64,000 nucleotides of DNA. It comes from Candidatus Nomurabacteria bacterium. Its GTDB lineage: Bacteria; Patescibacteriota; Minisyncoccia; Phycocordibacterales; UBA9973. How positions within the stretch are numbered: position 1 is the first letter of the stretch; each line of letters begins with the position of its first letter. The stretch spans positions 118,683 through 182,682 of the forward strand of contig JAPLXS010000006.1 of the NCBI GenBank assembly GCA_026395965.1, written 5' to 3'. Shown piece by piece: positions 6,225 to 54,176 of this stretch. A program made the position numbers and the translations under genes. A model generated the notes under the pieces. The model was given only the letters and a program-made list of their open reading frames with translations. It was not told the origin of the DNA and did no database searches.

Positions 6225-6350
6225 ACAGTATTGACACTATGTGCGATAAAAGTATATACTTCATTAGTAACTAGCCATCAGGGACAAATTCCTCTTAGGA
6301 AAAGCGAAAGCTACCTGTATGCGCTGACCGCCCCGTAAGGGGCGGTTTTC
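6225..6350 (+). ncRNA. candidate small RNA / structured 3' UTR
   Basis: Promoter-like TTGACA-17nt-ATATAC at 6231-6259. About 85 nt downstream there is a strong terminator (accgccccgtaaggggcggttttctttt) at 6324-6350. No ORF. Confidence 0.3.
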
Positions 6351-7003: not shown

Positions 7004-7831
7004 ATGAGCAACGGCCATATTACTATCATAAAACCAAAGAAACTCTTCAGTCTTTCTGACTTAAAGGAAGTCTGGGAATATAGAGAATTACTATATTTCT
7101 TTACATGGCGGGACTTAAAAGTTAGATACAAACAGACTGCTATTGGTGCACTGTGGGCAATATTTCAACCATTCATGACAATGGTTGTTTTTTCTGTTTT
7201 TTTTGGGGGATTACTTCAAATACCTTCAGATGGAGTACCCTATCCTATATTTGTCTACACAGGACTACTTTTTTGGCAATTTTTCTCTAGTGCACTTTCT
7301 GATACTAGTAATGTGCTTATCACCAATCAAGCAATAATTACAAAAGTATACTTCCCTCGTCTATTACTTCCTCTTTCTTCTGTAGCAACTAAGTTTATGG
7401 ATTTTGCCATAGCTGCAGTTATTCTAGTAGGTATGATGATTTATTATGGATACACTCCTCATATAACAGGACTACTTATTATTCCCCTACTCCTTCTAAT
7501 TACTTTTATGGCATCTGTAGGATTTGGACTTATCCTAGCATCAATAAACGTTAAATACAGAGACGTAAGATATGCTCTGCCATTCTTTATTCAAATACTT
7601 ATGTTCGTAACTCCTGTTATTTATCCTGCTTCTATTGCTGGTAAATACTCTTGGATACTAGCTCTAAATCCTATGATGGGAGTTATTCAGAGTGCTCGTG
7701 CAGCTCTACTGGGAACAACTGTTTTAAACTGGACACTTATAGGTATATCTCTAGCTGCCACAACAATATTGATGATATTTGGAATTTATACATTCAAGAA
7801 AACTGAACGTTATTTTGCAGATATAATATAA
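7004..7831 (+). CDS. ABC-2 type polysaccharide exporter permease (Wzm/TagG-like)
   Basis: Six predicted TM helices and the ABC-2 family signature. Immediately followed by its ATPase. Confidence 0.8.
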   Translation: MSNGHITIIKPKKLFSLSDLKEVWEYRELLYFFTWRDLKVRYKQTAIGALWAIFQPFMTMVVFSVFFGGLLQIPSDGVPYPIFVYTGLLFWQFFSSALSDTSNVLITNQAIITKVYFPRLLLPLSSVATKFMDFAIAAVILVGMMIYYGYTPHITGLLIIPLLLLITFMASVGFGLILASINVKYRDVRYALPFFIQILMFVTPVIYPASIAGKYSWILALNPMMGVIQSARAALLGTTVLNWTLIGISLAATTILMIFGIYTFKKTERYFADII

Positions 7832-22026: not shown

Positions 22027-22106
22027 TAAGAATTAAGAATTAGGAATTAATAATTAGGAATTGATAAACAACTCAGAATTAATAATTAATAAAAATTAAT
22101 AATTAT
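22027..22106. repeat. (GAATTAR)n heptanucleotide tandem array
   Basis: taagaattaagaattaggaattaataattaggaattga...aattaataattaataaaaattaataatta. Confidence 0.7.
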
Positions 22107-22432
22107 CTTTTACTAATCTCTAAATAACAGAACTCTAGACCATGACCTCTTTCTCTATCAAAAAAAGTTGCAATGGTTTTAAAGAAATAATATTTAGAAT
22201 TGTAAACTAAACTAAATAACTCTGCCTGTCCTTACCCTTCTAAAGAATTTCTTACGAAAGTAAAGAAAAGACGAGACAAGCATATCTGCCTTGTCGACAG
22301 GGCCGATACCACATCTTGAATCGAGTATCGATATAGATTATTCTTTTGCGCTCCTCTATCAAAGCAGCACGAGAATAAAAAATAAAAACAAAAGAAACAA
22401 AACGGATCTGACCAGAGAGAACTCAATTGAGA

Positions 22433-22458
22433 AATTAAGAATTAGGAATTAGGAATCC
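22433..22458. repeat. (GAATTAR)n heptanucleotide array
   Basis: aattaagaattaggaattaggaatcc. Confidence 0.7.
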
Positions 22459-22697
22459 ACAAAGGACCACTAATTAAGAATTCAAAATAAATAATTCCGG
22501 CTACAAGCTATTTGGTATTAACAACTTATAGTATTAAATTTTCAATGATCTTCTCTTCCCAAATGTACTTATATAAAACAAGAACATAGGGATACTATAT
22601 ACTACCACATCTAGCAATAAAATACCAGGGGTAATACACATAAATATTATATATGGAGTCATTTAAATATGCAACATATATGACCCAATTACGGATT

Positions 22698-22724
22698 AAA
22701 AATTAGGAATTAAGAATTAGAAAT
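22698..22724. repeat. (GAATTAR)n heptanucleotide array
   Basis: aaattaggaattaagaattagaaatac. Confidence 0.7.
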
Positions 22725-22826
22725 ACGAGCATACAATGAGGCCGTAGTGGGACTTGAGGGTGATACTCAGCTATACCCCTGTTTTGTGATTACATATGGA
22801 TTAAATATCCACCTAGACATTCATTA

Positions 22827-22866
22827 AAACACTCCCCAGAAAGCTCCGCTTTCTGGGGAGTGTTTT
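22827..22866 (-). terminator. rho-independent terminator of the 22889..23743 gene
   Basis: aaaacactccccagaaagc-ggagctttctggggagtgtttt with a T-tract on the minus strand. Confidence 0.65.
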
Positions 22867-22870
22867 AATG

Positions 22871-22901
22871 ATTCATAATTCATAATTTTTAATTCGTAAT
22901 T
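22871..22901. repeat. heptanucleotide array (AATTAYG variants) overlapping the stop codon of the 22889..23743 gene
   Basis: Minus strand reads aattacgaattaaaaattatgaattatgaatc. The TAA stop and last codons (IITN*) lie inside the array. Confidence 0.6.
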
Positions 22902-23743
22902 ATACTATACCTGCTCCATCTTTTTGCACCTGTCTTTTTGATGTGTCCTTTAGAGATGAGGGTGTTTAATTCGCGTTGAATTGTCTTTTCTGAACAGTTC
23001 GTGAATGCCAGTGATATGTCTTTTATTGAAATTCCCTCTTCACCGATTTGTATGCCTTTCTTATCTTTTATCATGCTCAATATTTTTGCTGTTCGGTCAT
23101 TTCTGTCTGATAGATTTGTCTCATAAGATTTTATTTTTTGAGGATAAGAAAGCGATAAAGGACTCTTGCGATTTGTAAGAGACATTCCATCTAATGATGT
23201 CCCTTTGTTGTTTGAAAATTGCTCTTTATTGTGATTAAAACTATCTACATTTCCGAGAGATATTTCGCTCTCATTTTCCTCTGGCAGATGAAACATTTTG
23301 TCGTCCAATTTGAAAGTAAAATGTTTGTCTTTCTCTTGGCTTGATTTCAAATCAGAAGCTAGTATAGAGAACTCTTTTTTTAGTATTGAAGTATTCATCT
23401 CTGAGATGAAACCTATAGTATGAGCTATCTCTATAAAAGAAAGTAGTTCGTATATGTGAGTTAGTGATACAGAAATATAAGAATGCTTTTCTACTGGAGA
23501 CAATGTAGAGAGCTTATATATATCGGACAGAAGTTCTACACCTAGTAAACGAAGCTTCCCCTTTAGTGCATCGTCTGTGTCCATGCAATCAGAAACCAAA
23601 TACAAAGCTGTCACTAGCTTCTCTGTCTTTTTGTTTGCAAAATGAGAAACATGTATATTTGACAATGATTTTATATCAGAGACATCAGAATGTCCGTATG
23701 TATTTAAGCTTGTCTTTTGTATGTCTTTTTGATTATTTATCAT
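22889..23743 (-). CDS. hypothetical protein with C-terminal winged-helix-like segment
   Basis: The C-terminus (ISIKDISLAFTNCSEKTIQRELNTLISKGHIKKTGAKRWSRYSI) looks like a wHTH. The rest has no recognisable domain. Confidence 0.35.
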   Translation of the reverse strand: MINNQKDIQKTSLNTYGHSDVSDIKSLSNIHVSHFANKKTEKLVTALYLVSDCMDTDDALKGKLRLLGVELLSDIYKLSTLSPVEKHSYISVSLTHIYELLSFIEIAHTIGFISEMNTSILKKEFSILASDLKSSQEKDKHFTFKLDDKMFHLPEENESEISLGNVDSFNHNKEQFSNNKGTSLDGMSLTNRKSPLSLSYPQKIKSYETNLSDRNDRTAKILSMIKDKKGIQIGEEGISIKDISLAFTNCSEKTIQRELNTLISKGHIKKTGAKRWSRYSIITN

Positions 23744-23839
23744 GTCTTTTTAGTATCACTTGATGAGTACTTATGTCTTTAATGTGTCCATTATACACTC
23801 ATTTTTCTTGAGTGCAATAGGAAGAAAAATGAGTGTATA

Positions 23840-23875
23840 AAATTAATAATTAGGAATTAGGAATTAAGAATTGAA
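23840..23875. repeat. (GAATTAR)n heptanucleotide array
   Basis: aaattaataattaggaattaggaattaagaattgaa. Confidence 0.7.
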
Positions 23876-23936
23876 TACAGAAATAATTATAAAATAATTG
23901 AAAATTTGGAATTTTAAATACGAAACACAGGTTCAT

Positions 23937-23986
23937 TTTTTAGACGTCGGATATCTATTAGTAAACAGGTGTCCGACGTCTAAAAT
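23937..23986. repeat. TAGACGTCCGACA-family long palindrome
   Basis: tttagacgtcgga-tatctattagtaaacaggtg-tccgacgtctaaa. Confidence 0.7.
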
Positions 23987-24000
23987 TGAGCTCCTGATCA

Positions 24001-24033
24001 CATTCTTAATTGTTAATTCTTAATTTGTAATTG
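24001..24033. repeat. (GAATTAR)n heptanucleotide array (reverse orientation)
   Basis: cattcttaattgttaattcttaatttgtaattg. Confidence 0.65.
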
Positions 24034-24280: not shown

Positions 24281-26518
24281 ATGGCAAAAAAAGATAAAGA
24301 AAAAGAAGATGTTGAGAGCACATCCAAACAAGGAAATAGGAAGAATAAAAATATTAAGAAAGTAGAAATGAGAGAAGAGATTCGCATGAGTATTTGGGGT
24401 ATAACTTTTATGTTTCTCGGTCTTTTGATAACCTTATCTGTTTTCAAAATGGCTGGTCCTGTGGGCGATTTTATTTACGATAAATTGAGTGCATTCTTTG
24501 GGCTTGGGTACTTTCTCCTACCTGTACTTCTAGTAGTGATAGGATATTCTTTTTTGAAAAAAGAAAGACCACAAGTTGCAAAAATTCACGCTATCTTTGG
24601 TCTCGCTACACTACTCTCTACACTAGGAATAATGGACCTCGCAGCCAATGGAAAAGAGGCATCGGTCAATATAACTTTTGGTGGGTATCTAGGTAGTATT
24701 GTCGCATGGCCATTCTTGAAACTTTTCGGAGTATATGCAGGGATACTTTTGCTTGGAGCAATACTCATTACCTCTCTTATTATCTTGTGTGACGAGAGAC
24801 CAAACTTGGTAGAACTATTTAAAAAGTTTTGGAGTTTTTTGAAGAGAGATATTCGTACACCAAAAATCGATAATGAAGAAGGGGAAGAAAATTACGAATT
24901 AGAAGAAAATAAAATAGAGACAAAAGAATCAGCAGTAAAAACAAATGTAGTAGAATACGATGAGAACCCCGTAGAAGAAAAACAAGAAGGTCGCGCTTCA
25001 AAGGACACTGCGCGACATGATTCTGCAGAATCAGATATGAAGGTAAAGAAATTTACTACTGACTACATACCTCCCCCAATGTCTCTCTTAGAAAAAGATA
25101 AGGGTAAGCCAAACACAGGAGACATGAAAGGCAACATGAATATAATACAGAGAACTCTCCTCACCTTCGGTGTATCCGTAGAAATGGATGAAGTAACTGT
25201 CGGACCAACTGTTACTCGCTACGCAATGAAACCTGCACAAGGAGTAAAACTCTCACGCATAGTAGGACTTCAAAATGAACTAGCACTAGCACTCTCTGCA
25301 CGTACTATACGTATCGAAGCACCTATCCCTGGAAAGTCACTTGTGGGTATCGAAATACCAAACAAAGTAAAATCTATGGTTGGACTCGCTACACTTCTAT
25401 CTGATGATTTATTCCAAAACTCTGCAAAGCCACTCACTGTCGCACTCGGACGTGGACTATCTGGAAAGTCAGTATTTGGAAACATAGCAAAAATGCCACA
25501 CTTGCTAGTAGCAGGAACAACTGGTTCTGGTAAGTCTGTAACAATACACTCAATCATCACTTCCCTACTCTACAAAAATGGACCAGAAGATTTGAGACTA
25601 ATACTAGTGGATCCAAAAAGAGTAGAACTAACTTTGTATAACAAAATCCCCCACTTACTCACTCCAGTTATTACTGACCCAAAGAAAACAATCTTGGCTC
25701 TAAAGTGGGCAGCAAAAGAAATGGATAGACGCTACGACTTACTCCAAGCTCATTCTGTGCAAAATATAGAATCATACCAATCTAATGTTTATGGAAAAGC
25801 AAAGAAAGATGAGGTTATAGAAAAACTCCCTTATATAGTTATCTTTATCGATGAACTTGCAGATATAATGCAGTCATACCCTAGAGAGCTAGAAAGTGCT
25901 ATCGTTCGTCTTGCTCAGATGTCTCGTGCTGTGGGAATACACTTAATACTATCTACACAGAGACCATCTGTGAATGTCATCACAGGACTAATCAAGGCCA
26001 ATATTCCTACTCGTGTAGCTCTACAGGTGTCATCACAGATAGACTCCCGAACTATTTTAGACCATGGTGGTGCCGAACTACTAGGTGCTGGAGACATGCT
26101 CTACTCTTGTGCAGAAACTCCTCACCCAGAGAGAATACAGAGTGCATTTATATCTGAAGAAGAAGTTAAAAAAGTGGTAGAATACTTACGTAAGGCTTAT
26201 ATAGATGAAATACCTAGTACAATAGAACTATCTGGAAGTATAGATAAAGGAGGAAACAATCTTTTCAATGACAGTATCGGTGGAGATGATGGAGATGATG
26301 ACCTATATGAAGATGCAAGAATGACAGTTATAGAGGCAGGCAAAGCATCTACTTCATACCTACAGAGAAAACTTGGTATCGGATACGCTCGCGCAGCTAA
26401 ACTCATAGATATGCTAGAAGAACGTCATGTAATAGGAGCTGGTAATGGAGCAAAACCAAGAGATGTACTAGAAAAAGGAGTGAATAATACAGATGATATG
26501 ATTATGGGTAAGGAATAA
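24281..26518 (+). CDS. ftsK: DNA translocase FtsK/SpoIIIE
   Basis: N-terminal TM helices, Walker A LLVAGTTGSGKS, and a C-terminal gamma wHTH domain (YLQRKLGIGYARAAKLIDMLEE). Confidence 0.9.
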   Translation: MAKKDKEKEDVESTSKQGNRKNKNIKKVEMREEIRMSIWGITFMFLGLLITLSVFKMAGPVGDFIYDKLSAFFGLGYFLLPVLLVVIGYSFLKKERPQVAKIHAIFGLATLLSTLGIMDLAANGKEASVNITFGGYLGSIVAWPFLKLFGVYAGILLLGAILITSLIILCDERPNLVELFKKFWSFLKRDIRTPKIDNEEGEENYELEENKIETKESAVKTNVVEYDENPVEEKQEGRASKDTARHDSAESDMKVKKFTTDYIPPPMSLLEKDKGKPNTGDMKGNMNIIQRTLLTFGVSVEMDEVTVGPTVTRYAMKPAQGVKLSRIVGLQNELALALSARTIRIEAPIPGKSLVGIEIPNKVKSMVGLATLLSDDLFQNSAKPLTVALGRGLSGKSVFGNIAKMPHLLVAGTTGSGKSVTIHSIITSLLYKNGPEDLRLILVDPKRVELTLYNKIPHLLTPVITDPKKTILALKWAAKEMDRRYDLLQAHSVQNIESYQSNVYGKAKKDEVIEKLPYIVIFIDELADIMQSYPRELESAIVRLAQMSRAVGIHLILSTQRPSVNVITGLIKANIPTRVALQVSSQIDSRTILDHGGAELLGAGDMLYSCAETPHPERIQSAFISEEEVKKVVEYLRKAYIDEIPSTIELSGSIDKGGNNLFNDSIGGDDGDDDLYEDARMTVIEAGKASTSYLQRKLGIGYARAAKLIDMLEERHVIGAGNGAKPRDVLEKGVNNTDDMIMGKE

Positions 26519-26582
26519 TTAGGAATTAGGAATTTAGAAACAATAAGAGGGGTAAAAAATTAGGAATTAAAATACAATAAGA
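26515..26582. repeat. two (GAATTAR)n heptanucleotide arrays abutting the ftsK stop
   Basis: aataattaggaattaggaatttag ... aaattaggaattaaaatac. The ftsK TAA stop lies at the array edge. Confidence 0.65.
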
Positions 26583-28242: not shown

Positions 28243-28277
28243 GAAGAATTAAGAATTTATAATTACGAATTAGGAAT
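28243..28277. repeat. heptanucleotide array immediately after the recA stop
   Basis: gaattaagaatttataattacgaattaggaatac. Confidence 0.65.
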
Positions 28278-28288
28278 ACAGAGTGGGT

Positions 28289-28322
28289 TGCCGAAGGCAA
28301 CCCACTCTGTATTTATTTGTGT
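28289..28322 (+). terminator. rho-independent terminator of recA
   Basis: acagagtgggttgccgaaggcaacccactctgtatttatttg. Confidence 0.7.
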
Positions 28323-29208: not shown

Positions 29209-29270
29209 AAGTTAGTAACTAGGATTTAGAGACTAGGTACTAGCAAATACAAAATATACAGTTGGGATTA

Positions 29271-29869: not shown

Positions 29870-29912
29870 ATAATTAAGAATTAATAATTAGGAATTAAGA
29901 ATCTAGTGATTA
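29870..29912. repeat. (GAATTAR)n heptanucleotide array in the rplK 5' leader
   Basis: taattaagaattaataattaggaattaagaatctag. Confidence 0.65.
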
Positions 29913-30116: not shown

Positions 30117-30163
30117 AAATAGACGTCCGACATCTGTTGGTACAGGTGTCGGACGTCTATTAA
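30117..30163. repeat. TAGACGTCCGACA-family long palindrome
   Basis: aatagacgtccgacatctg-ttggta-caggtgtcggacgtctatt. Confidence 0.7.
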
Positions 30164-31289: not shown

Positions 31290-31337
31290 AAATAGACGTC
31301 CGACACCTGCCGTAGCAGATGTCGGACGTCTATTTTT
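31290..31337. repeat. TAGACGTCCGACA-family long palindrome (followed by T-tract)
   Basis: aatagacgtccgacacctgc-cgtag-cagatgtcggacgtctattttt. Confidence 0.7.
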
Positions 31338-43856: not shown

Positions 43857-46800
43857 TTATAAAACTGGCAGAGCAGGAGTTTCAGTAGTATCTGCTGGTG
43901 GTGGAACTACGGCAGCAGGAGTTTCTACTGCTGGTGGTACTACTTCGACAGGAGGAATATTTGTATCCCCAGGAACGACAACTGAAGCGTCAACAGGAGG
44001 TGTATCTGAAGTTGTTGTATCTGTTATTGATGTTGCACCTGTTGTTGCAGATGAGCCTGATGTTGATGGAATTAATTGTTTTAATTTAATAAGATCAGTC
44101 TTGTTGATACACTCATACGAACCATCTGGGTCAGTAAGACAAATCTCTCCAGTAAAGATGCGAGTTATCTTATTTGCCGCATTAGATAACCATGCAAAGA
44201 GACTATCTCTCCATGTATTTTGTATAGTCATATCAGCTATTCCTGTTATTTTTAGATTCATCTCTCTTATCGCTTCTACTATGATAGGTGTCATCTGCGC
44301 GTAGTACACGGACTTGTACCCTTGTGAATCTGTTGCTACGAGTTGAGGAAAATATTGCTCCAAATCTTGAGCGAGGAATCCAACTTGTTGTGGAGATGCT
44401 GGATTTTCCAACCAGTTATAAGTAACTGTTTTTACTTTCAACAAGTTATCTAAAGTATTATCAGATAGATTTATAATATTTGTCTTTAGTCTTTCATCTG
44501 AAGTACAAGCGATACCTGTACCAGTAGTGATAGTACACTGAGTAGAAGAAGAGCCATTTATACGAGTAGTATTTATCGGTCTATTGGCAGAACCTACTAT
44601 AAACTGATTTGCGGCTGTATTGGTTGCGTATGCACCTATTGCTATACTGTTTGAAAAGCTTCCTGCGCTCGTGGCATGACCAATTAGGATAGAAGTATCG
44701 GCGAATGTAGTAGTGTCATTGTATACAGCTGTATTGTTGACTGTATTATTGTATCCTGAATTTCTACCAATAAATATTGAGTTGGCAGCATTTGTAGCAT
44801 TGTACCCTGCACTACTTCCAAAGAAATTTGAGTTAATAGCGTTAGCTGCACCATACCCTGACAATAAACCAAAAAAGTTTGAGTTATTGGCTGAAGTAGC
44901 ACCACTTCCGGAATTTTTTCCAAAGAAGTTTGAATATGAAGCAGTAGTTGCACCACTTCCTGCATTCGGACCAAAGAAGTTTGAGTTAATAGCTGAGGTT
45001 GCATTATACCCTGTAGCTCCTCCAAAGAAATTAGAGTTGTTAGCTGAGGTTGCACCATATCCTGAAAGTGCCCCAAAGAAATTAGAAGAAAAAGCACTAG
45101 TTGCATTTTGTCCGGCGCCGTTTCCCATAAAGATGGTACCATTAGCAGATGCTGTACCTTGGTTGCCACCAATAAAAATTGAGTTGATCTGTCTGTTAAC
45201 AGAACCTACCATAAACTGATTTGCGGCTGTATTGGTTGCGTATGCACCTATTGCAATACTGTTTGAGTACCCTCCTGTACCAGTACCATGGCCTAGGAGG
45301 ATTGAAGTATTGGCAAAAGTAGTTACATCGTCATATACAGAAGTATTAACAACGGTATCATTTAAGCCTGAATTTGTACCTATAAATATTGAGTTGGCTG
45401 CACTAGTTGCACTATGTCCTGCATCTGTTCCAAAGAAATTTGAATAAGCAGCAGAACCAGCTTGATTTCCTGCGTTTAATCCGAAGAAGTTTGAGTTGTT
45501 AGCGGAATTAGCACTACTTCCTGCATATGATCCAAAGAAATTTGAATCATGGGCATTGACAGAACTACTTCCTGCACTTGTTCCAAAGAAGCTTGATTGA
45601 TTCGCATAAGTTGCACCATTTCCTGCATTAGAACCAAAGAAATTTGAATTCGAAGCACCGGTTGCTAGTACTCCTGTATTAACTCCAAAGAAGTTTGATG
45701 CATAAGCACCAGTAGCACCCCATCCCGCCCAATACCCGAAAAAGTTTGAGCTATTAGCATTGGTTGCATTTATTCCCGATTTTACACCAAAGAAGTTTGA
45801 GCCATAGGCACTAGTTGCTGATAATCCCGCATCAGCACCAAAGAAGTTTGATGCACTAGCACCAGTAGCAAGCTTTCCTGCATTAGAACCAAAGAAGTTT
45901 GAACTATTAGAACTGGTTGCACCATATCCTGCACTATGACCAAAGAAGTTTGAGTTATTTGCACTGGTTGCACCATTTCCTGCATCTGTACCAAAGAAGT
46001 TTGAATATGGAGCAGAACTAGCATGATACCCCGCAAGATAACCAAAGAAGTTGGAAGCATCAGAATTTGTGGCTCCGTCACCTGCATTTGATCCAAAAAA
46101 GTTTGAGCTATTAGCATTGGTTGCGCCATTTCCTGCATATGATCCAAAGAAATTTGAACCACTTGCATTGGTTGCACTATTCCCTGCATTAATTCCAAAG
46201 AAGTTTGAAACATTGGCAAGAGAAGCATTAAGTCCTGCATTAACTCCAAAGAAGTTTGAATTAGATGCGCCAGTTGCACCACTTCCTGCATCTGTTCCAA
46301 AGAAGTTTGAATTATCTGCACTAGTTGCATTTTTACCCGCACTATTACCCATAAAGATTGTATTTTGAACAGATGCTGTGCCTTGATTGCCTCCAATAAA
46401 AATTGAGTTAATTGGTCTGTTAGCAGAACCTACCATAAACTGATTGGAATATGTATTGGTTGTATACGCACCTAATGCAATACTATTTGAGTACCCTCCA
46501 GTGCTAGTACTATGACCAATGAGGATGGAGGTGTCGGCGAAGGTAGTAGTCTCATTGTACAATGCAGTATTGTTTACAAGATCATTATTACCTGAATTAG
46601 TACCTATAAATATTGAGTTGGCAGCATTGGTTGCAGAATAACCCGCAGAAGAACCAAAGAAATTTGAATTAAATGCAAAAGTAGCTGTGCTTCCTGCACT
46701 TGGTCCAAAGAAGTTTGACGCAAGGGCATTTGTTGCGTTTGTTCCCGCAGAAGAACCGAAGAAATTTGAGCTACTGGCCTCAGTTGCACCATGACCTGAA

Positions 46801-49493
46801 TCTGTTCCAAAGAAGTTTGAGCCATTTGCATTTGTGGCACCATCACCTGCATTTGCTCCAAAGAAATTAGAATAATAAGCATTATAAGCATTGAGTCCTG
46901 AGCTTGATCCAAAGAAGTTGGAGTTATTTGCAGCAGTTGCATTTTCACCTGCACTTACGCCAAAAAAGTTTGAGGCAGTGGCGACAGTTGCATTTCTTCC
47001 TGCACTTAATCCAAAGAAGTTTGATTGGTTAGATAAACTTGCTCCATCTCCGGCATAACTTCCAAAAAAGTTTGAGTTGTTGGCATCAGTTGCATTTTGA
47101 CCAGAAAATGTACCAAAGAAGTTTGAGCTGTAAGCATTAGTTGCACTTATTCCTGAAAAATTTCCAAAGAAGTTTGAATTATTGGCACCACTAGCATTTT
47201 GACCAGAAAATGTACCAAAGAAGTTTGAGTGGTCGGCTGCATTTGCACCGTCACCTGCATTTTGTCCAAAGAAGTTAGAGTTATTGGCAGCAGTTGCATT
47301 TAGTCCAGAATTAAGTCCTAAAAAGTTTGAATAAGAAGCATCGGTAGCACTAAGTCCTGCATTCGCTCCCGAGAAGTTTGAATCATTTGCTTTTGTTGCA
47401 CCGTTTCCTGCACTTGGTCCAAAGAAGTTGGATGAGTAAGCTGAATTTGCACCTAAACCTGTGCTTGATCCAAAGAAATTTGAGTTGTTGGCACTAGTTG
47501 CACCATTTCCTGCGTCTGTACCAAAGAAGTTTGAGTTTGAGGCGGAAGCTGCATTCAATCCTGCGTTATTTCCCATAAAGATTGTACCAATTACTGATGC
47601 TGTGCCTTTGTTTCCGCCAATAAAAATAGAATTTATAGGTCTGTTATCAGAACCTACCACAAACTGATTGGGTGCTGTGTTGGTTGAGTATGCACCTATT
47701 GCAATACTATTTGAGAAACCACCAGTATTTGTATTGTGACCAAGGAGAATGGATGTATCAGCGAAGGTGGTAGTATCATCATACACTGCAGTATTGTTTA
47801 CTGTATCATTGTATCCTGAATTTTTACCAATAAATATTGAATTGGCGGCATTGATTGCATGATTTCCCGCATAATAACCAAAGAAATTTGAATCATAAGA
47901 ATTGTTTAAATTATTGGAATCTCCTCTTCCTGCATTTGATCCAAAAAAGTTTGAATTAGAAGCATTATTAGAATAAATTCCTGAGGAAGGTCCAAAGAAG
48001 TTTGAACTACTAGCACCATTTGCACTATTACCTGCACTATACCCAAAGAAGTTTGAGTAAGTAGAATTTATAGCTCCATATCCTGCTGTTTGTCCAAAAA
48101 AGTTTGAATAAGATGCACCTTCAGCAATTTTACCAGCTCTATCTCCAAAAAAATTTGAACCATCAAGACCTAAAATTCCCTCCCCAGCACTTCTACCAAA
48201 AAGGTTTGAACTAATTATATTTACTCCACCATTACCTGCATCTCTTCCAAAGAAGTTAGATTCGTAAGCATATATAGCTCCTAGGCCAGCACCTTCTCCA
48301 AAAAAATTTGAGTTGTAAGCACCAATTCCACCGCTTCCTGCATTTAGTCCAAAGAAGTTTGAACTTGTAGCATCAGTTGCATTCAATCCTGCGTTTGTTC
48401 CAAAGAAGTTTGAGTTAGCTGCGTTAGTAGCACTACTTCCTGCGCTTGTTCCAAAGAAATTGGAGTTAGCAGCAGCAGTTGCACTATTACCTGCGCTTGG
48501 TCCAAAGAAATTGGAGCTATTAGCACCAGTTGCACCAAACCCTGAATTGTCTCCAAAGAAGTTTGAATTATCTGCATTAGTTGCACCACTTCCTGCACTT
48601 AATCCAAAGAAATTTGATTTAGCAGCATTGGTTGCACCATCTCCTGCATTTGATCCAAAGAAGTTGGAACTACTCGCATTGGTTGCATTTGATCCAGATG
48701 CATAGCCTAAGAAGTTTGAGAAGGAGGCAGAAGCTGCATTCAATCCCGCATTTGTTCCAAAGAAGTTTGAATTAGAGGCGCCAGTGGCACCACTTCCAGC
48801 ATTATTTCCAAAGAAGTTTGACGAGAAGGCATTGGTTCCATTCAACCCAGCTCCATAACCTAAGAAGTTTGAATTATCAGCATTGGTCGCACCACTTCCT
48901 GCATTTTTTCCAAAGAAGTTTGAGTAAGTAGCAGACGAGCTTGATCCTGAGCCTGTTAGTCCTGTAGAAAAAAGTGATGTGGTGTTTTGTACTGTAATAG
49001 GTGAAGACACTACTGTCCCCCATGCTATATCTGTACCGTTGGTAGTGAGAAATTGACCCGCAATACCAGAGACAGATGGGATAACAACTTTCCAATCTGA
49101 AGATAAAGTAAGACAACGATTTTGATTGGCATCCAAAGAAGAGTCAGTGACAGTTGTTGTACAAGCTGGGTACCCTCCGCGGTTTGTAACTAGACGATAA
49201 GTTGCTGTCTGATTTCCTGCTGTGCCAGAGTCGGTATCTATAACAGTTGCTATCATTCCTAGAGATCTTCTTTCACTTGTGATAGCAAGTAGAGCTGTCA
49301 TATCTGCTACTTGCATGTGTCCTCCTTGGAGGTAGTTTGTATCAGCGATAGCAAAGTAACCGTTCCCTACTCCGAGAGTAGTAGGTACAGCTAGACCTCC
49401 GTTTTGAGAATAAGCTCGATATGAAAATGAACCAACCATAAGTAGGACGGTTGTAATAAAAAATATTTTTGTTTTAAGGTCTATTATTTTCAT
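43857..49493 (-). CDS. giant (1878 aa) secreted tail-fibre-like repeat protein with C-terminal Peptidase_S74 intramolecular chaperone domain
   Basis: Signal peptide. N-terminal fibre-like motif GQFLTTNGTDIAWGTV. More than 90 tandem 15-aa repeats (SNFFGxxAGxGATxA). Four higher-order ~100-aa modules (SIFIG.NSG...FADTSIL.GH...NQF.VGS.NRPINSIFIGGN). TSDERLKTNI...YNW...GF.AQDLEQ..P.LV matches the S74 autoproteolytic chaperone. A Pro/Thr/Val-rich tail follows. Confidence 0.7.
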   Translation of the reverse strand: MKIIDLKTKIFFITTVLLMVGSFSYRAYSQNGGLAVPTTLGVGNGYFAIADTNYLQGGHMQVADMTALLAITSERRSLGMIATVIDTDSGTAGNQTATYRLVTNRGGYPACTTTVTDSSLDANQNRCLTLSSDWKVVIPSVSGIAGQFLTTNGTDIAWGTVVSSPITVQNTTSLFSTGLTGSGSSSSATYSNFFGKNAGSGATNADNSNFLGYGAGLNGTNAFSSNFFGNNAGSGATGASNSNFFGTNAGLNAASASFSNFLGYASGSNATNASSSNFFGSNAGDGATNAAKSNFFGLSAGSGATNADNSNFFGDNSGFGATGANSSNFFGPSAGNSATAAANSNFFGTSAGSSATNAANSNFFGTNAGLNATDATSSNFFGLNAGSGGIGAYNSNFFGEGAGLGAIYAYESNFFGRDAGNGGVNIISSNLFGRSAGEGILGLDGSNFFGDRAGKIAEGASYSNFFGQTAGYGAINSTYSNFFGYSAGNSANGASSSNFFGPSSGIYSNNASNSNFFGSNAGRGDSNNLNNSYDSNFFGYYAGNHAINAANSIFIGKNSGYNDTVNNTAVYDDTTTFADTSILLGHNTNTGGFSNSIAIGAYSTNTAPNQFVVGSDNRPINSIFIGGNKGTASVIGTIFMGNNAGLNAASASNSNFFGTDAGNGATSANNSNFFGSSTGLGANSAYSSNFFGPSAGNGATKANDSNFSGANAGLSATDASYSNFLGLNSGLNATAANNSNFFGQNAGDGANAADHSNFFGTFSGQNASGANNSNFFGNFSGISATNAYSSNFFGTFSGQNATDANNSNFFGSYAGDGASLSNQSNFFGLSAGRNATVATASNFFGVSAGENATAANNSNFFGSSSGLNAYNAYYSNFFGANAGDGATNANGSNFFGTDSGHGATEASSSNFFGSSAGTNATNALASNFFGPSAGSTATFAFNSNFFGSSAGYSATNAANSIFIGTNSGNNDLVNNTALYNETTTFADTSILIGHSTSTGGYSNSIALGAYTTNTYSNQFMVGSANRPINSIFIGGNQGTASVQNTIFMGNSAGKNATSADNSNFFGTDAGSGATGASNSNFFGVNAGLNASLANVSNFFGINAGNSATNASGSNFFGSYAGNGATNANSSNFFGSNAGDGATNSDASNFFGYLAGYHASSAPYSNFFGTDAGNGATSANNSNFFGHSAGYGATSSNSSNFFGSNAGKLATGASASNFFGADAGLSATSAYGSNFFGVKSGINATNANSSNFFGYWAGWGATGAYASNFFGVNTGVLATGASNSNFFGSNAGNGATYANQSSFFGTSAGSSSVNAHDSNFFGSYAGSSANSANNSNFFGLNAGNQAGSAAYSNFFGTDAGHSATSAANSIFIGTNSGLNDTVVNTSVYDDVTTFANTSILLGHGTGTGGYSNSIAIGAYATNTAANQFMVGSVNRQINSIFIGGNQGTASANGTIFMGNGAGQNATSAFSSNFFGALSGYGATSANNSNFFGGATGYNATSAINSNFFGPNAGSGATTASYSNFFGKNSGSGATSANNSNFFGLLSGYGAANAINSNFFGSSAGYNATNAANSIFIGRNSGYNNTVNNTAVYNDTTTFADTSILIGHATSAGSFSNSIAIGAYATNTAANQFIVGSANRPINTTRINGSSSTQCTITTGTGIACTSDERLKTNIINLSDNTLDNLLKVKTVTYNWLENPASPQQVGFLAQDLEQYFPQLVATDSQGYKSVYYAQMTPIIVEAIREMNLKITGIADMTIQNTWRDSLFAWLSNAANKITRIFTGEICLTDPDGSYECINKTDLIKLKQLIPSTSGSSATTGATSITDTTTSDTPPVDASVVVPGDTNIPPVEVVPPAVETPAAVVPPPADTTETPALPVL
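44700..48950. repeat. intragenic 45-bp tandem repeat region (ccaaagaagtttga... units) encoding SNFFG repeats
   Basis: The recurring motifs ccaaagaagtttgag / ccaaagaaatttga are visible throughout the giant gene. Confidence 0.75.
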
Positions 49494-54028: not shown

Positions 54029-54047
54029 ATTTATAAACAGCAAATTA

Positions 54048-54095
54048 ACCACTCTAACCCAACTTACGCTATAGCGTAAGTTGGGTTAGAGTGGT
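54048..54095. repeat. palindrome with ACGCTATAGCGT core
   Basis: aaccactctaacccaacttacgctatagcgtaagttgggttagagtggtgg. Confidence 0.6.
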
Positions 54096-54145
54096 GGCTA
54101 CAATTTAAAATTACTGATTTTTAATCTGTGATTGTAAATTGTGAT

Positions 54146-54176
54146 TGCGAATTTTCTAATTCCTAATTCCTAATTT
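54146..54176. repeat. (GAATTAR)n heptanucleotide array overlapping the ComEC stop codon
   Basis: Minus strand reads aaaaattaggaattaggaattagaaaattc. The final ComEC codons R-N-stop are encoded by aggaattag within the array. Confidence 0.65.

What the first reader, a model, noticed from the sequence alone, without database searches (positions are those of the whole stretch)
22027..24033. Dispersed (GAATTAR)n heptanucleotide tandem arrays concentrated in a 2.3-kb non-coding island
Tandem 7-bp units (GAATTAG / GAATTAA, with TAATTAG and GAATTGA variants) occur in 3-11 copies at 22027-22106, 22433-22458, 22698-22724, 22871-22901, 23840-23875 and 24001-24033. That is six arrays inside 2 kb around a single wHTH-like gene, in both orientations. 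Further copies lie at 26515-26582, 28243-28277, 29870-29912 and 54146-54176. Ten or more independent sites with the same period and consensus is far beyond chance, even in AT-rich DNA. Possible roles are binding-site arrays for a DNA-binding protein such as the enclosed wHTH protein, a nucleoid or boundary element, or a slippage-prone contingency element. I am not aware of a described function.
Basis: seen in the sequence. Interest (0 to 1): 0.65.

Follow-up and report, generated by a model that had tools for sequence, protein, structure and literature searches.

The report
Seven-base repeat arrays at gene ends
Short runs of a seven-letter DNA motif (GAATTAG/GAATTAA) sit in the gaps next to gene ends of this small-genome Nomurabacteria bacterium; they are real, change quickly, and belong to a long-known but still unexplained class of bacterial seven-base repeats, with no sign that the neighbouring gene's protein binds them.

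Summary
The window has 8 arrays of at least 3 GAATTAR units against about 0.03 expected. All lie in intergenic DNA, and 11 of 13 lie in the long spacers between 21.9 and 30.3 kb. The source is a Candidatus Nomurabacteria (CPR) MAG.

The arrays are heptanucleotide simple-sequence repeats. This is the same kind as cyanobacterial STRRs, Beggiatoaceae TAACTGA repeats and Xanthomonas/Nostoc GGGAATC repeats.

- **Period:** only period 7 is enriched in this clade.
- **Copy number:** a 99.4%-identical strain differs by exactly one 7-bp unit after recA.
- **Turnover:** relatives with the same gene order have 0 to 8 arrays. Some carry a different heptamer at the same site, for example (TAAGTAG)x11.7 after ftsK.
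- **Position:** arrays abut ORFs with the purine-rich strand as sense strand after stop codons (60:10 across phyla, 22:0 in this clade). ORFs often end inside an array.
- **Inverted pairs:** these zip into long stems around terminator-like hairpins.

The enclosed wHTH gene is a conserved core gene that is also present in relatives without arrays, so it is unlikely to be their binding partner.

Most likely they are slippage-born repeats filtered by selection, with incidental or weak effects in untranslated regions. This is a new member of a known kind.

The parts
22030..22106 (+). Array of 5 clean units (GAATTAA GAATTAG GAATTAA TAATTAG GAATTGA, 22030-22064), followed by a degenerate TAATTAA-type tail. 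It lies 105 nt upstream of the PG_binding gene (- strand), with its 5' end facing that ORF.
   Evidence: A homologous array is present in L122 and L568 and absent in L561 and L565.
22432..22484 (+). Arrays of 3 units (22432-22452) and 2 units (22471-22484). They lie in a variable gap between two conserved non-coding blocks.
   Evidence: At the same alignment position L122 has AGTAGAA/AGTAGTA units, L568 has TAATTAA/GAATTAA units, and L561 has none.
22693..22720 (+). Array of 4 units. It is the left arm of an inverted pair with 22871-22901.
22823..22870 (.). Terminator-like perfect hairpin between the two arms, immediately downstream of the wHTH gene. It is also present in L570, which lacks the arrays.
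   Evidence: (hairpin alignment)
22871..22901 (-). Variant array (…TAATTAC GAATTAA AAATTAT GAATTAT GAATC on the - strand). It overlaps the last codons and the stop codon of the wHTH gene, whose tail …SIITN* is encoded by array units. It is the right arm of the inverted pair.
22889..23743 (-). 284-aa gene with a weak C-terminal winged-helix match. It is a conserved hypothetical family of Paceibacterota. I do not count it as part of the repeat system.
23840..23874 (+). Array of 5 units, 97 nt upstream of the wHTH start on its non-coding strand. It is the left arm of a second inverted pair.
23941..23982 (.). REP-like palindrome (TAGACGTCGGA…TCCGACGTCTA) enclosed by the second pair. It belongs to a dispersed family in this window.
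24002..24032 (-). Array of 3 to 4 units, 255 nt upstream of ftsK on its non-coding strand. It is the right arm of the second pair.
   Evidence: A homologous array is present in L122 at 7027-7063.
26516..26570 (+). Two arrays (3 and 2 units) that fill the ftsK-to-next-gene spacer. The ftsK stop codon TAA is the first triplet of the array.
   Evidence: Orthologous spacers are 17-27 nt in relatives without arrays. In L122 the spacer holds (TAAGTAG)x11.7.
28244..28277 (+). Degenerate array directly after the recA stop codon. It runs into the stem of a terminator-like hairpin (28274-28314). Its copy number is polymorphic.
   Evidence: L001 carries one extra GAATTAG unit.
29212..29246 (+). Five heptads after the efp stop codon (TTAGTAA CTAGGAT TTAGAGA CTAGGTA CTAGCAA). 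Only YTAG is kept from unit to unit.
   Evidence: sequence. The same CTAG-core family follows the wHTH stop in other lineages.
29871..29902 (+). Array of 4 to 5 units, 9 nt upstream of the rplK start (- strand) on its non-coding strand.
   Evidence: The same unit order occurs in L564 and L568, and the array is absent in L122 and L565. An assembly contig of the same population ends inside it.
54156..54176 (-). Array of 3 units that encodes the last 7 codons (…KKLGIRN) and the TAG stop codon of comEC.

Best explanation
The arrays are heptanucleotide microsatellites of the STRR / long-SSR type, not a dedicated protein-binding system.

**Shown:**
- The units are head-to-tail 7-mers with a conserved AATT core and a variable, purine-rich 3-nt linker.
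- Period 7 alone is enriched in this clade.
- Copy number changes by whole units between near-identical strains.
- Between related species the arrays are gained, lost, or replaced by another heptamer family (GTAG or CTAG core) at the same spacer.
- They are confined to untranslated DNA and abut ORFs.
- The purine-rich, C-poor, TAA/TAG-bearing strand is the sense strand just after stop codons.
- ORFs frequently run into an array and end at its first in-frame stop codon.

**Inferred:**
- The arrays arise and resize by replication slippage, which favours 7-nt units.
- Selection then decides where and in which orientation they survive. A unit that is not a multiple of three and that closes all three frames cannot persist inside genes. 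Arrays therefore expand up to, and a few codons into, gene ends.
- Orientation is filtered at the transcript level: a purine-rich strand is tolerated in 3' untranslated regions, and its complement in 5' leaders.
- Their effects are by-products or weak co-options. They donate stop codons and short C-terminal tails, lengthen spacers, provide AU-rich leaders without a Shine-Dalgarno sequence (rplK), and, as inverted pairs, add long AU-rich stems around terminator hairpins.
For: - Enrichment: 8 arrays against about 0.03 expected.
- Period specificity: in 166 kb of Nomurabacteria sequence, period 7 gives 12 arrays against 0 expected, and periods 8 and 10-12 give 0.
- Strain polymorphism: one 7-bp unit differs between strains that are 99.4% identical. 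A contig breaks inside an array.
- Turnover: syntenic relatives carry 9, 8, 8, 2, 0 and 0 arrays. L570, at 87-90% nucleotide identity, has none around the wHTH gene.
- The ftsK spacer is 17-27 nt without arrays and 78-89 nt with GAATTAG (window) or (TAAGTAG)x11.7 (L122).
- Of 71 distinct orthologous wHTH gene ends, 17 carry in-phase heptads of three core families, against 0.025 in shuffles.
- Only 5 of 192 arrays lie deep inside ORFs.
- ORFs end inside arrays in all three registers. The C-terminal tails of wHTH and ComEC are array-encoded.
- Orientation after stop codons is 60 forward to 10 reverse. In this clade it is 22 to 0.
- The 5' end of the purine-rich strand is nearer an ORF in 106 of 144 cases. 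This is the rule published for GGGAATC repeats (PMC4692102).
- Other AT-rich heptamers also form long arrays in public data, so no special partner for GAATTAR is required.
- Published precedent: heptanucleotides are the commonest long SSR class, and slippage was proposed as the cause (cited in PMC4679880, and PMC4692102).
Against: - Pure slippage should amplify whatever local 7-mer is available. Yet one unit dominates this window, and only two or three core families (AATT, GTAG, CTAG) make up 59 of 65 arrays in 537 kb of related genomes.
- Within arrays, the AATT core is about ten times better conserved than the linker positions: 9, 24, 4 and 25 mismatches against 171, 104 and 60.
- The same AT-rich unit occurs in genomes of 61-67% GC.
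- The rplK-upstream array keeps its unit order in three species whose FtsK proteins are only 76-80% identical.
- The ORF-proximal polarity has no demonstrated mechanism. I found no clear decay gradient along arrays.
Confidence: 0.55

Rival explanations
1. The arrays are binding platforms for a trans-acting nucleic-acid-binding protein. One dimer or domain would bind per heptad, either on DNA (as the ribbon-helix-helix omega/ParB protein of pSM19035 binds contiguous heptads) or on RNA (S1-, Csp- or CsrA-like proteins, as proposed for TAACTGA repeats). This would form a genome-wide regulatory or architectural network.
For: - A conserved AATT core with a variable linker.
- One dominant unit per genome and few core families per clade.
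- Presence in high-GC genomes.
- Conservation of the rplK-leader array across species.
- Consistent polarity relative to ORFs.
- Contiguous heptads in direct and inverted orientation match the anatomy of omega operators (PMC9499535).
Against: - No candidate partner was identified. The enclosed wHTH gene is kept in relatives without arrays and is restricted to Paceibacterota, whereas the arrays occur in many phyla.
- Close relatives with the same genes have no arrays, or a different heptamer at the same site.
- Copy number is unconstrained, from 2 to 20 units.
- The flanking genes share no functional theme.
Confidence: 0.2
2. The arrays act at the RNA level as structural modules. Inverted pairs would form long AU-rich duplexes that extend terminator hairpins, stabilise 3' ends, or serve as double-strand-specific (RNase III-type) processing sites between cistrons. 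Single arrays would be unpaired remnants of such pairs.
For: - The two window modules fold with the arrays as outer stems around an inner hairpin (z = -8.5 and -7.4).
- At least 12 comparable '-> ... <-' pairs occur in other phyla.
- In a Chloroflexia MAG, five intercistronic spacers of the S3-L16-S17-L14-L24-L5-S8-L6 ribosomal operon each carry a '<- loop ->' pair just before the Shine-Dalgarno sequence and ATG.
- The orientation bias at stop codons points to a transcript-level effect.
Against: - Most arrays are unpaired. Among arrays that share a spacer, direct pairs are about as common as inverted ones.
- Strong hairpins are no more frequent after arrays than after other gene ends (38% against 42%).
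- The arrays are dispensable in close relatives that keep the terminator hairpin.
Confidence: 0.12
3. The arrays are written or spread by an active sequence-specific process, such as a mobile-element-like copy-and-paste, ectopic template switching between arrays, or templated repeat addition. Local slippage alone would not be the source.
For: - The same unit occurs at about 10 loci in 64 kb, while an 87-90% identical relative lacks it at three of them.
- A shared 14-nt higher-order unit (GAATTAA TAATTAG) appears at several loci.
- The unit recurs in phages and in distant phyla.
- The polarity is unexplained.
Against: - Paired arrays share no conserved internal or flanking sequence, no target-site duplications and no terminal motifs.
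- No transposase or reverse transcriptase was seen among the window ORFs scanned.
- Control heptamers are equally easy to find in viral contigs.
Confidence: 0.07
4. The arrays are contingency (phase-variation) switches. Changes in unit number would turn adjacent genes on or off.
For: Copy number does vary between strains, and some arrays lie in likely leader or promoter regions (rplK, ftsK, PG_binding gene).
Against: - The arrays lie outside ORFs, so they cannot shift reading frames.
- The neighbouring genes are housekeeping genes (recA, ftsK, rplK, efp, comEC).
- Most arrays follow stop codons rather than sit between promoter elements.
- The same conclusion was reached for GGGAATC repeats (PMC4692102).
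Confidence: 0.04

Closest known systems
GGGAATC / GGGGA(C/T)T heptamer repeats of Xanthomonas and Nostoc (Rehm et al. 2015, PMC4692102)
   Same: - Tandem 7-mers spread over the genome.
- Strong bias to non-coding DNA.
- Variable unit number and sequence between close relatives at the same intergenic sites.
- Occasional inverted pairs.
- No link to particular gene functions or to mobile elements.
- The same positional rule: next to the 5'-neighbouring ORF, on the coding strand after stop codons (including overlap with the stop codon) and on the non-coding strand before start codons. I reproduced this rule here.
   Different: The unit here is AT-rich (GAATTAR) with at most two adjacent G, so the G-quadruplex rationale and the preference for four units do not carry over. 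The host is a CPR bacterium with a small, compact genome. Several heptad families alternate at the same gene end.
TAACTGA direct repeats of marine Beggiatoaceae, Cyanobacteria and some Bacteroidetes (MacGregor 2015, PMC4679880)
   Same: - Intergenic heptamer arrays of 2 to 6 units, occasionally dozens.
- A unit that contains stop codons.
- Presence in phylogenetically scattered lineages.
- Presence next to ribosomal protein genes and in leaders without a Shine-Dalgarno sequence.
- Function unknown.
   Different: TAACTGA arrays lie mostly in forward orientation just upstream of start codons. GAATTAR arrays are forward after stop codons and, in this clade, on the non-coding strand before start codons.
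STRR (short tandemly repeated repetitive) heptamers of heterocystous cyanobacteria (my own knowledge: Mazel et al. 1990; STRRs inside the RNase P RNA gene, Vioque 1997; mentioned in papers listed)
   Same: A few genome-specific heptamer families, dispersed in non-coding DNA and tolerated inside variable parts of non-coding sequence.
   Different: The unit sequences differ. Whether the conserved 22.1-22.7 kb non-coding region here is an RNA gene is unproven.
Heptad operator / parS arrays bound by the omega (ParB, ribbon-helix-helix) protein of plasmid pSM19035 (PMC9499535)
   Same: Contiguous 7-bp units in direct and inverted orientation, in arrays of about 4 to 10 units.
   Different: Those arrays lie upstream of a few plasmid promoters next to the gene for their binding protein. 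Here the arrays are chromosomal, follow stop codons, turn over quickly, and have no identified partner.
REP/BIME-type intergenic palindromes
   Same: Located in 3' untranslated or intercistronic regions. Inverted pairs form stems close to stop codons and terminators.
   Different: REPs are single conserved imperfect palindromes, not tandem heptads. This window has its own REP-like family (TAGACGTCCGACA), which is distinct from the arrays.

Membership tests
Heptanucleotide long simple-sequence repeats (STRR / LSSR type) | Head-to-tail tandem units of exactly 7 bp, far more frequent than composition predicts | tested here: met
   TRF. There are 8 arrays against about 0.03 expected. Only period 7 is enriched in 166 kb of the clade.
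Heptanucleotide long simple-sequence repeats (STRR / LSSR type) | Confined to non-coding DNA | tested here: met
   All window arrays are intergenic or overlap only the last codons of an ORF. Only 5 of 192 arrays in 121 loci lie deep inside ORFs.
Heptanucleotide long simple-sequence repeats (STRR / LSSR type) | Unit-number variation between strains and species at the same locus | tested here: met
   One extra unit after recA in L001. L568 has one extra unit in the rplK array, and arrays are present or absent among relatives.
Heptanucleotide long simple-sequence repeats (STRR / LSSR type) | One or a few dominant unit sequences per genome | tested here: met
   This holds for the window and for 537 kb of related genomes. 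The rest of this genome was not available.
Heptanucleotide long simple-sequence repeats (STRR / LSSR type) | ORF-proximal strand polarity as reported for GGGAATC repeats | tested here: met
   106 of 144 arrays lie nearer the 5' neighbour. Orientation after stop codons is 60 forward to 10 reverse.
G-quadruplex-forming heptamer repeats (GGGNATC) | A run of at least 3 G in each unit and a preference for four units | tested here: not met
   Units have at most GG across the unit junction, and GAATTAA units have a single G. Unit counts show no peak at four.
Contingency (phase-variable) SSR loci | The repeat lies inside an ORF or between promoter elements of a surface or virulence gene, so that unit changes switch expression | tested here: not met
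   The arrays lie outside ORFs, mostly after stop codons, beside recA, ftsK, rplK, efp and comEC.
Iterons of a Rep-type replication origin | Direct repeats next to a mobile rep gene, with DnaA boxes or an unwinding element | tested here: not met
   The wHTH gene is a syntenic chromosomal core gene. There is no DnaA-box cluster: 11 matches against 22 expected. Arrays are also dispersed beside other genes.
Omega/RHH-type heptad operators | Contiguous heptads in direct and inverted orientation | tested here: met
Omega/RHH-type heptad operators | A cognate heptad-binding protein that binds cooperatively | not testable with these tools
No ribbon-helix-helix gene was looked for systematically. The adjacent wHTH gene does not co-vary with the arrays.
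MITE / REP-type mobile palindromes | Conserved internal sequence among copies, terminal inverted repeats and target-site duplication | tested here: not met
   The inner segments of paired arrays differ within one genome (L109; window). No shared flanks were seen.

The most novel reading that the evidence does not exclude
Heptad arrays may form a sequence-constrained code at ORF boundaries rather than being junk microsatellites. A few core families (AATT, GTAG, CTAG plus a 3-nt linker) would be maintained or written by an unidentified trans-acting system. They would be placed so that 5' leaders carry the pyrimidine strand and 3' trailers carry the complementary purine, stop-rich strand. That arrangement closes all reading frames at gene ends and would allow pairing between leader and trailer, or trailer and trailer, across many bacterial phyla and their phages.
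Probability: 0.12. Interest if true: 0.75.

Novelty: new member of a known kind. Interest (0 to 1): 0.42.

Why it matters
Heptanucleotide arrays have been noted in bacteria since 1990, and nobody knows what they do. This case adds four things.

- It extends the phenomenon to the streamlined CPR bacteria, where every non-coding base is conspicuous.
- It shows that the positional rule published for G-rich GGGAATC repeats also holds for an AT-rich unit in more than 100 genomes of many phyla. That argues against G-quadruplex formation as the general explanation.
- It provides one orthologous gene end (after the KRWSRY motif of a conserved Paceibacterota protein) where three different heptad families have repeatedly overwritten the C-terminal codons. 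This is a natural experiment for separating slippage from selection.
- It names cultivable carriers in which deletion or inversion tests are feasible.

On the practical side, the arrays break short-read assemblies and can shift predicted stop codons.

Tried and rejected
- **Known RNA families.** No Rfam family reached its threshold in the island or in the syntenic regions of five relatives, at either gathering or E-value thresholds. ARAGORN found no tRNA or tmRNA.
- **Replication origin or iterons.** There is no DnaA-box cluster, and the CTCTATCAA motif is not significant in the window.
- **Altered genetic code.** Stop codon use is TAA 39, TAG 10, TGA 2 with intact long ORFs, so the standard code is likely.
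- **Is GAATTAR uniquely widespread?** This could not be decided. My 'reversed' control was invalid because GAATTAA reversed is a rotation of itself. The control heptamers do form true long arrays.
- **Stop-codon content as the cause of the orientation bias.** It is confounded with purine richness: 78 to 35 when both strands carry stop codons, against 33 to 15 for sense-only versus antisense-only.
- **Polar decay of arrays.** Only a slight asymmetry between 5' and 3' flanks was seen.
- **Specific association with terminators.** None was found (38% against 42%).
- **Promoter-like sites in the region.** There are fewer than in shuffles.
- **wHTH protein identity.** Only weak winged-helix matches in Pfam and NCBIfam, and no PDB sequence relative. 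I did not predict its structure.
- **Covariation in the conserved non-coding region.** Five sequences were too few. The minus strand folds better, but the signal is weak.
Full report
**Observation.**
Tandem Repeats Finder reports period-7 arrays at every listed site. A scan for consecutive units within one mismatch of GAATTAR gives these arrays:
- + strand: 22030-22064 (5 units), 22432-22452 (3), 22693-22720 (4), 23840-23874 (5), 26516-26536 (3), 29871-29898 (4).
- - strand: 24006-24026 (3) and 54156-54176 (3).
- Shorter or degenerate runs: 22076, 22471, 26557, 28246/28264, and 22871-22901 on the - strand.

There are 8 arrays of at least 3 units. Sequences simulated from order-1, order-3 or order-5 Markov models of the window give 0.02-0.05, and never more than one.

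The window holds about 7 kb of intergenic DNA in 34 spacers. Arrays occupy 8 of these spacers. Eleven of 13 arrays lie in the spacers between 21.9 and 30.3 kb, which hold 38% of the intergenic DNA (p = 7e-4).

Two details need correcting. No array has more than 5 clean units. The 'island' also consists of an 855-bp gene and two spacers, and the 966-bp spacer carries conserved blocks.

**Organism and genes.**
Exact protein look-ups place the window on a 333-kb contig of a Candidatus Nomurabacteria MAG in the CPR/Patescibacteria. The genes flanking the arrays are a PG_binding protein, a 284-aa protein with a weak winged-helix match, FtsK, RecA, EF-P, L11, NusG and ComEC. Stop codon use is TAA 39, TAG 10, TGA 2, so the standard genetic code is likely.

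**Anatomy relative to genes.**
- The ftsK stop codon is the first triplet of its array.
- The recA stop codon is followed directly by an array that runs into a terminator-like hairpin.
- comEC ends …KKLGIRN* inside an array.
- The wHTH gene ends …SIITN* in array units.
- The rplK array ends 9 nt from the start codon, on the non-coding strand.
- Two pairs of inverted arrays (22693-22720 with 22871-22901, and 23840-23874 with 24002-24032) bracket a terminator-like hairpin and a REP-like palindrome. Each module folds with the arrays as an outer stem (z = -8.5 and -7.4 against shuffles).

**Dynamics.**
- L001, a contig from run SRR20698642 that is 99.4% identical over 2.8 kb, differs from the window by exactly one extra GAATTAG unit after recA.
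- Another contig from the same run is 100% identical to the window and ends inside the rplK array.
- Five syntenic relatives were compared (RecA 90-96% and FtsK 69-82% identical to the window). All keep the gene order, including the wHTH gene and the roughly 0.9-kb spacer. They carry 8, 8, 2, 0 and 0 heptad arrays, against 9 in the window.
- L570, at 87-90% nucleotide identity, has no GAATTAR array around the wHTH gene but keeps the terminator hairpin.
- The ftsK-to-next-gene spacer is 17-27 nt in relatives without arrays. It is 78 nt in the window (GAATTAG units) and 89 nt in L122, where it is filled by a perfect (TAAGTAG)x11.7 array.
- The rplK-leader array keeps its unit order in the window, L564 and L568, and is absent in L122 and L565.

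Arrays are therefore gained, lost, resized and replaced on short evolutionary timescales, although some persist.

**A natural experiment.**
A metagenome scan with an alignment of the wHTH protein family returned 80 loci. Their 537 kb hold 65 heptad arrays, and these fall almost entirely into a few families:
- AATT core: 40 arrays.
- GTAG core: 19 arrays.
- A CTAG-core family is also visible at the wHTH gene ends.

I then looked at the gene end after the invariant KRWSRY motif. Of 71 distinct gene ends, 17 carry at least three in-phase heptads, against 0.025 in shuffles. In these, the C-terminal tail and the stop codon are encoded by the array. Examples are …ITN* from AATT units, …VESSK* from GTAG units and …GSSN* from CTAG units. 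GTAG-core arrays that abut a stop codon are on the sense strand 11 times and on the antisense strand never. GAATTAR arrays give the same 11 to 0. The window itself has a five-unit YTAG array after efp at 29212-29246.

**Beyond this clade.**
The hits come from Bacteroidota, Ignavibacteria, Cyanobacteria, Verrucomicrobia, Acidobacteriota, Chloroflexia, Treponema, Clostridia, Thioploca and several CPR groups. They include genomes of 61-67% GC, and arrays reach 20 units. Viral contigs carry the arrays too.

This does not show that GAATTAR is special. Two control heptamers of the same composition also saturate the scan and form true long arrays. A third control was invalid.

Across 192 arrays in 121 bacterial loci:
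- Only 5 lie deep inside ORFs.
- Arrays next to a stop codon are forward 60 times and reverse 10 times.
- ORFs end inside arrays in all three registers.
- The 5' end of the purine-rich strand is nearer an ORF than the 3' end in 106 of 144 cases, with medians of 25 and 137 nt, whatever the orientation of that ORF (p = 1e-8).

The orientation bias tracks purine richness at least as much as stop-codon content. Hairpins are not enriched after arrays.

Within arrays, the AATT core is about tenfold better conserved than the three linker positions.

In a Chloroflexia MAG, five spacers of the S3-L16-S17-L14-L24-L5-S8-L6 operon each carry an inverted GAATTAA pair just before the Shine-Dalgarno sequence and ATG.

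**Literature.**
- MacGregor 2015 (PMC4679880) describes TAACTGA heptamer arrays shared by Beggiatoaceae, Cyanobacteria and Bacteroidetes, with unknown function. The paper also relays the earlier finding that heptanucleotides are the commonest long SSR class and that slippage was proposed as the cause.
- Rehm et al. 2015 (PMC4692102) describe GGGAATC / GGGGAYT arrays in Xanthomonas and Nostoc. They report the positional rule found here, variation between close relatives at conserved sites, transcription of most arrays, no link to gene function or mobile elements, and no established role.
- A Nostoc preprint reports modest reporter effects of other heptamers.
- No bacterial paper in the library prints the GAATTAR array, and none links heptamer repeats with Patescibacteria.

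**Interpretation.**
The best-supported reading is that these are STRR-type heptanucleotide microsatellites. Replication slippage makes and resizes them. That step is inferred from the whole-unit polymorphism, the period-7 specificity and the rapid turnover. Selection then limits where they survive.

Because every unit carries TAA or TAG and 7 is not a multiple of 3, arrays cannot persist inside genes. They expand until they meet, or slightly overwrite, a gene end. This part is shown.

The strand rule suggests filtering at the transcript level. This part is inferred, and the mechanism is unknown.

Three features are not explained by slippage alone: the conserved AATT core, the small number of core families, and the presence in GC-rich genomes. 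They keep a trans-acting binding partner and an RNA-structural role alive as rivals.

Its family is confined to Paceibacterota and is retained unchanged in relatives that lack arrays.

**Verdict.**
This is a real feature and a new member of a known, functionally unresolved class. Interest is moderate.

Noticed in passing
window 22100-22700 (block 22275-22310 GACAAGCATATCTGCCTTGTCGACAGGGCCGATACC; also 22514-22552): The spacer between the PG_binding gene and the wHTH gene contains near-invariant blocks. The 36-mer is found with 0-1 mismatches in most of the 49 (of 80) related loci that carry it, always about 450-650 nt downstream of the wHTH stop codon. No Rfam family, tRNA or tmRNA matches. The minus strand folds better. 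It may be an undescribed Paceibacterota RNA or regulatory region. The heptad arrays sit in the variable gaps between the blocks.
   Followed up: partly
window 23941-23982, 30120-30159, 31293-31332; half-sites at 1492 and 62973: A REP-like palindrome family (TAGACGTCCGACA … TGTCGGACGTCTA) gives 10 matches against 0.34 expected. Copies also occur in the spacers of relative L570.
   Followed up: partly
L122 9306-9389: A perfect (TAAGTAG)x11.7 array fills the ftsK-to-next-gene spacer of a sister species, exactly where the window has GAATTAG units. The same unit follows the recA stop codon in L568.
   Followed up: yes
L109 640-5750 (Chloroflexia MAG, GC 58%): Five intercistronic spacers of the ribosomal protein operon (S3, L16, S17, L14, L24, L5, S8, L6) each carry an inverted pair (AATTCTT)n-loop-(AAGAATT)n directly before the Shine-Dalgarno sequence and ATG. 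These would form 25-35 bp AU-rich hairpins inside an essential polycistronic mRNA.
   Followed up: partly
L122 7759-7794 (inside ftsK); window FtsK residues ~200-215: AATTACG-type heptads lie in frame within the variable FtsK linker, where they encode …TNYELPITNDELE…. This shows that heptads whose reading frame has no stop codon can enter coding sequence.
   Followed up: partly
window 6267-6329 (+): Rfam DUF3800-II RNA motif above the gathering score (49 bits against 43.2).
   Followed up: no
window 43857-49493 (-): A 1878-aa ORF built largely of 51-bp (17-aa) tandem repeats with a C-terminal Peptidase_S74 (endosialidase chaperone) domain. It resembles a fibre or adhesin protein.
   Followed up: no
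window ~26060-26065 versus L001 373-376: A 3-bp in-frame indel in ftsK between the two co-occurring strains, in addition to the 7-bp array indel.
   Followed up: no
L561 9221-9419 and 5500-5770: A relative without GAATTAR arrays has its own short intergenic repeat family (…GACACGAATGG… / CGAATGR units) in the corresponding spacers.
   Followed up: no
window 54115-54153: A second tandem repeat (period 13-14, TGATTGTAAATCTG) lies directly beside the comEC array, followed by a long terminator-like hairpin at about 54040-54095.
   Followed up: no
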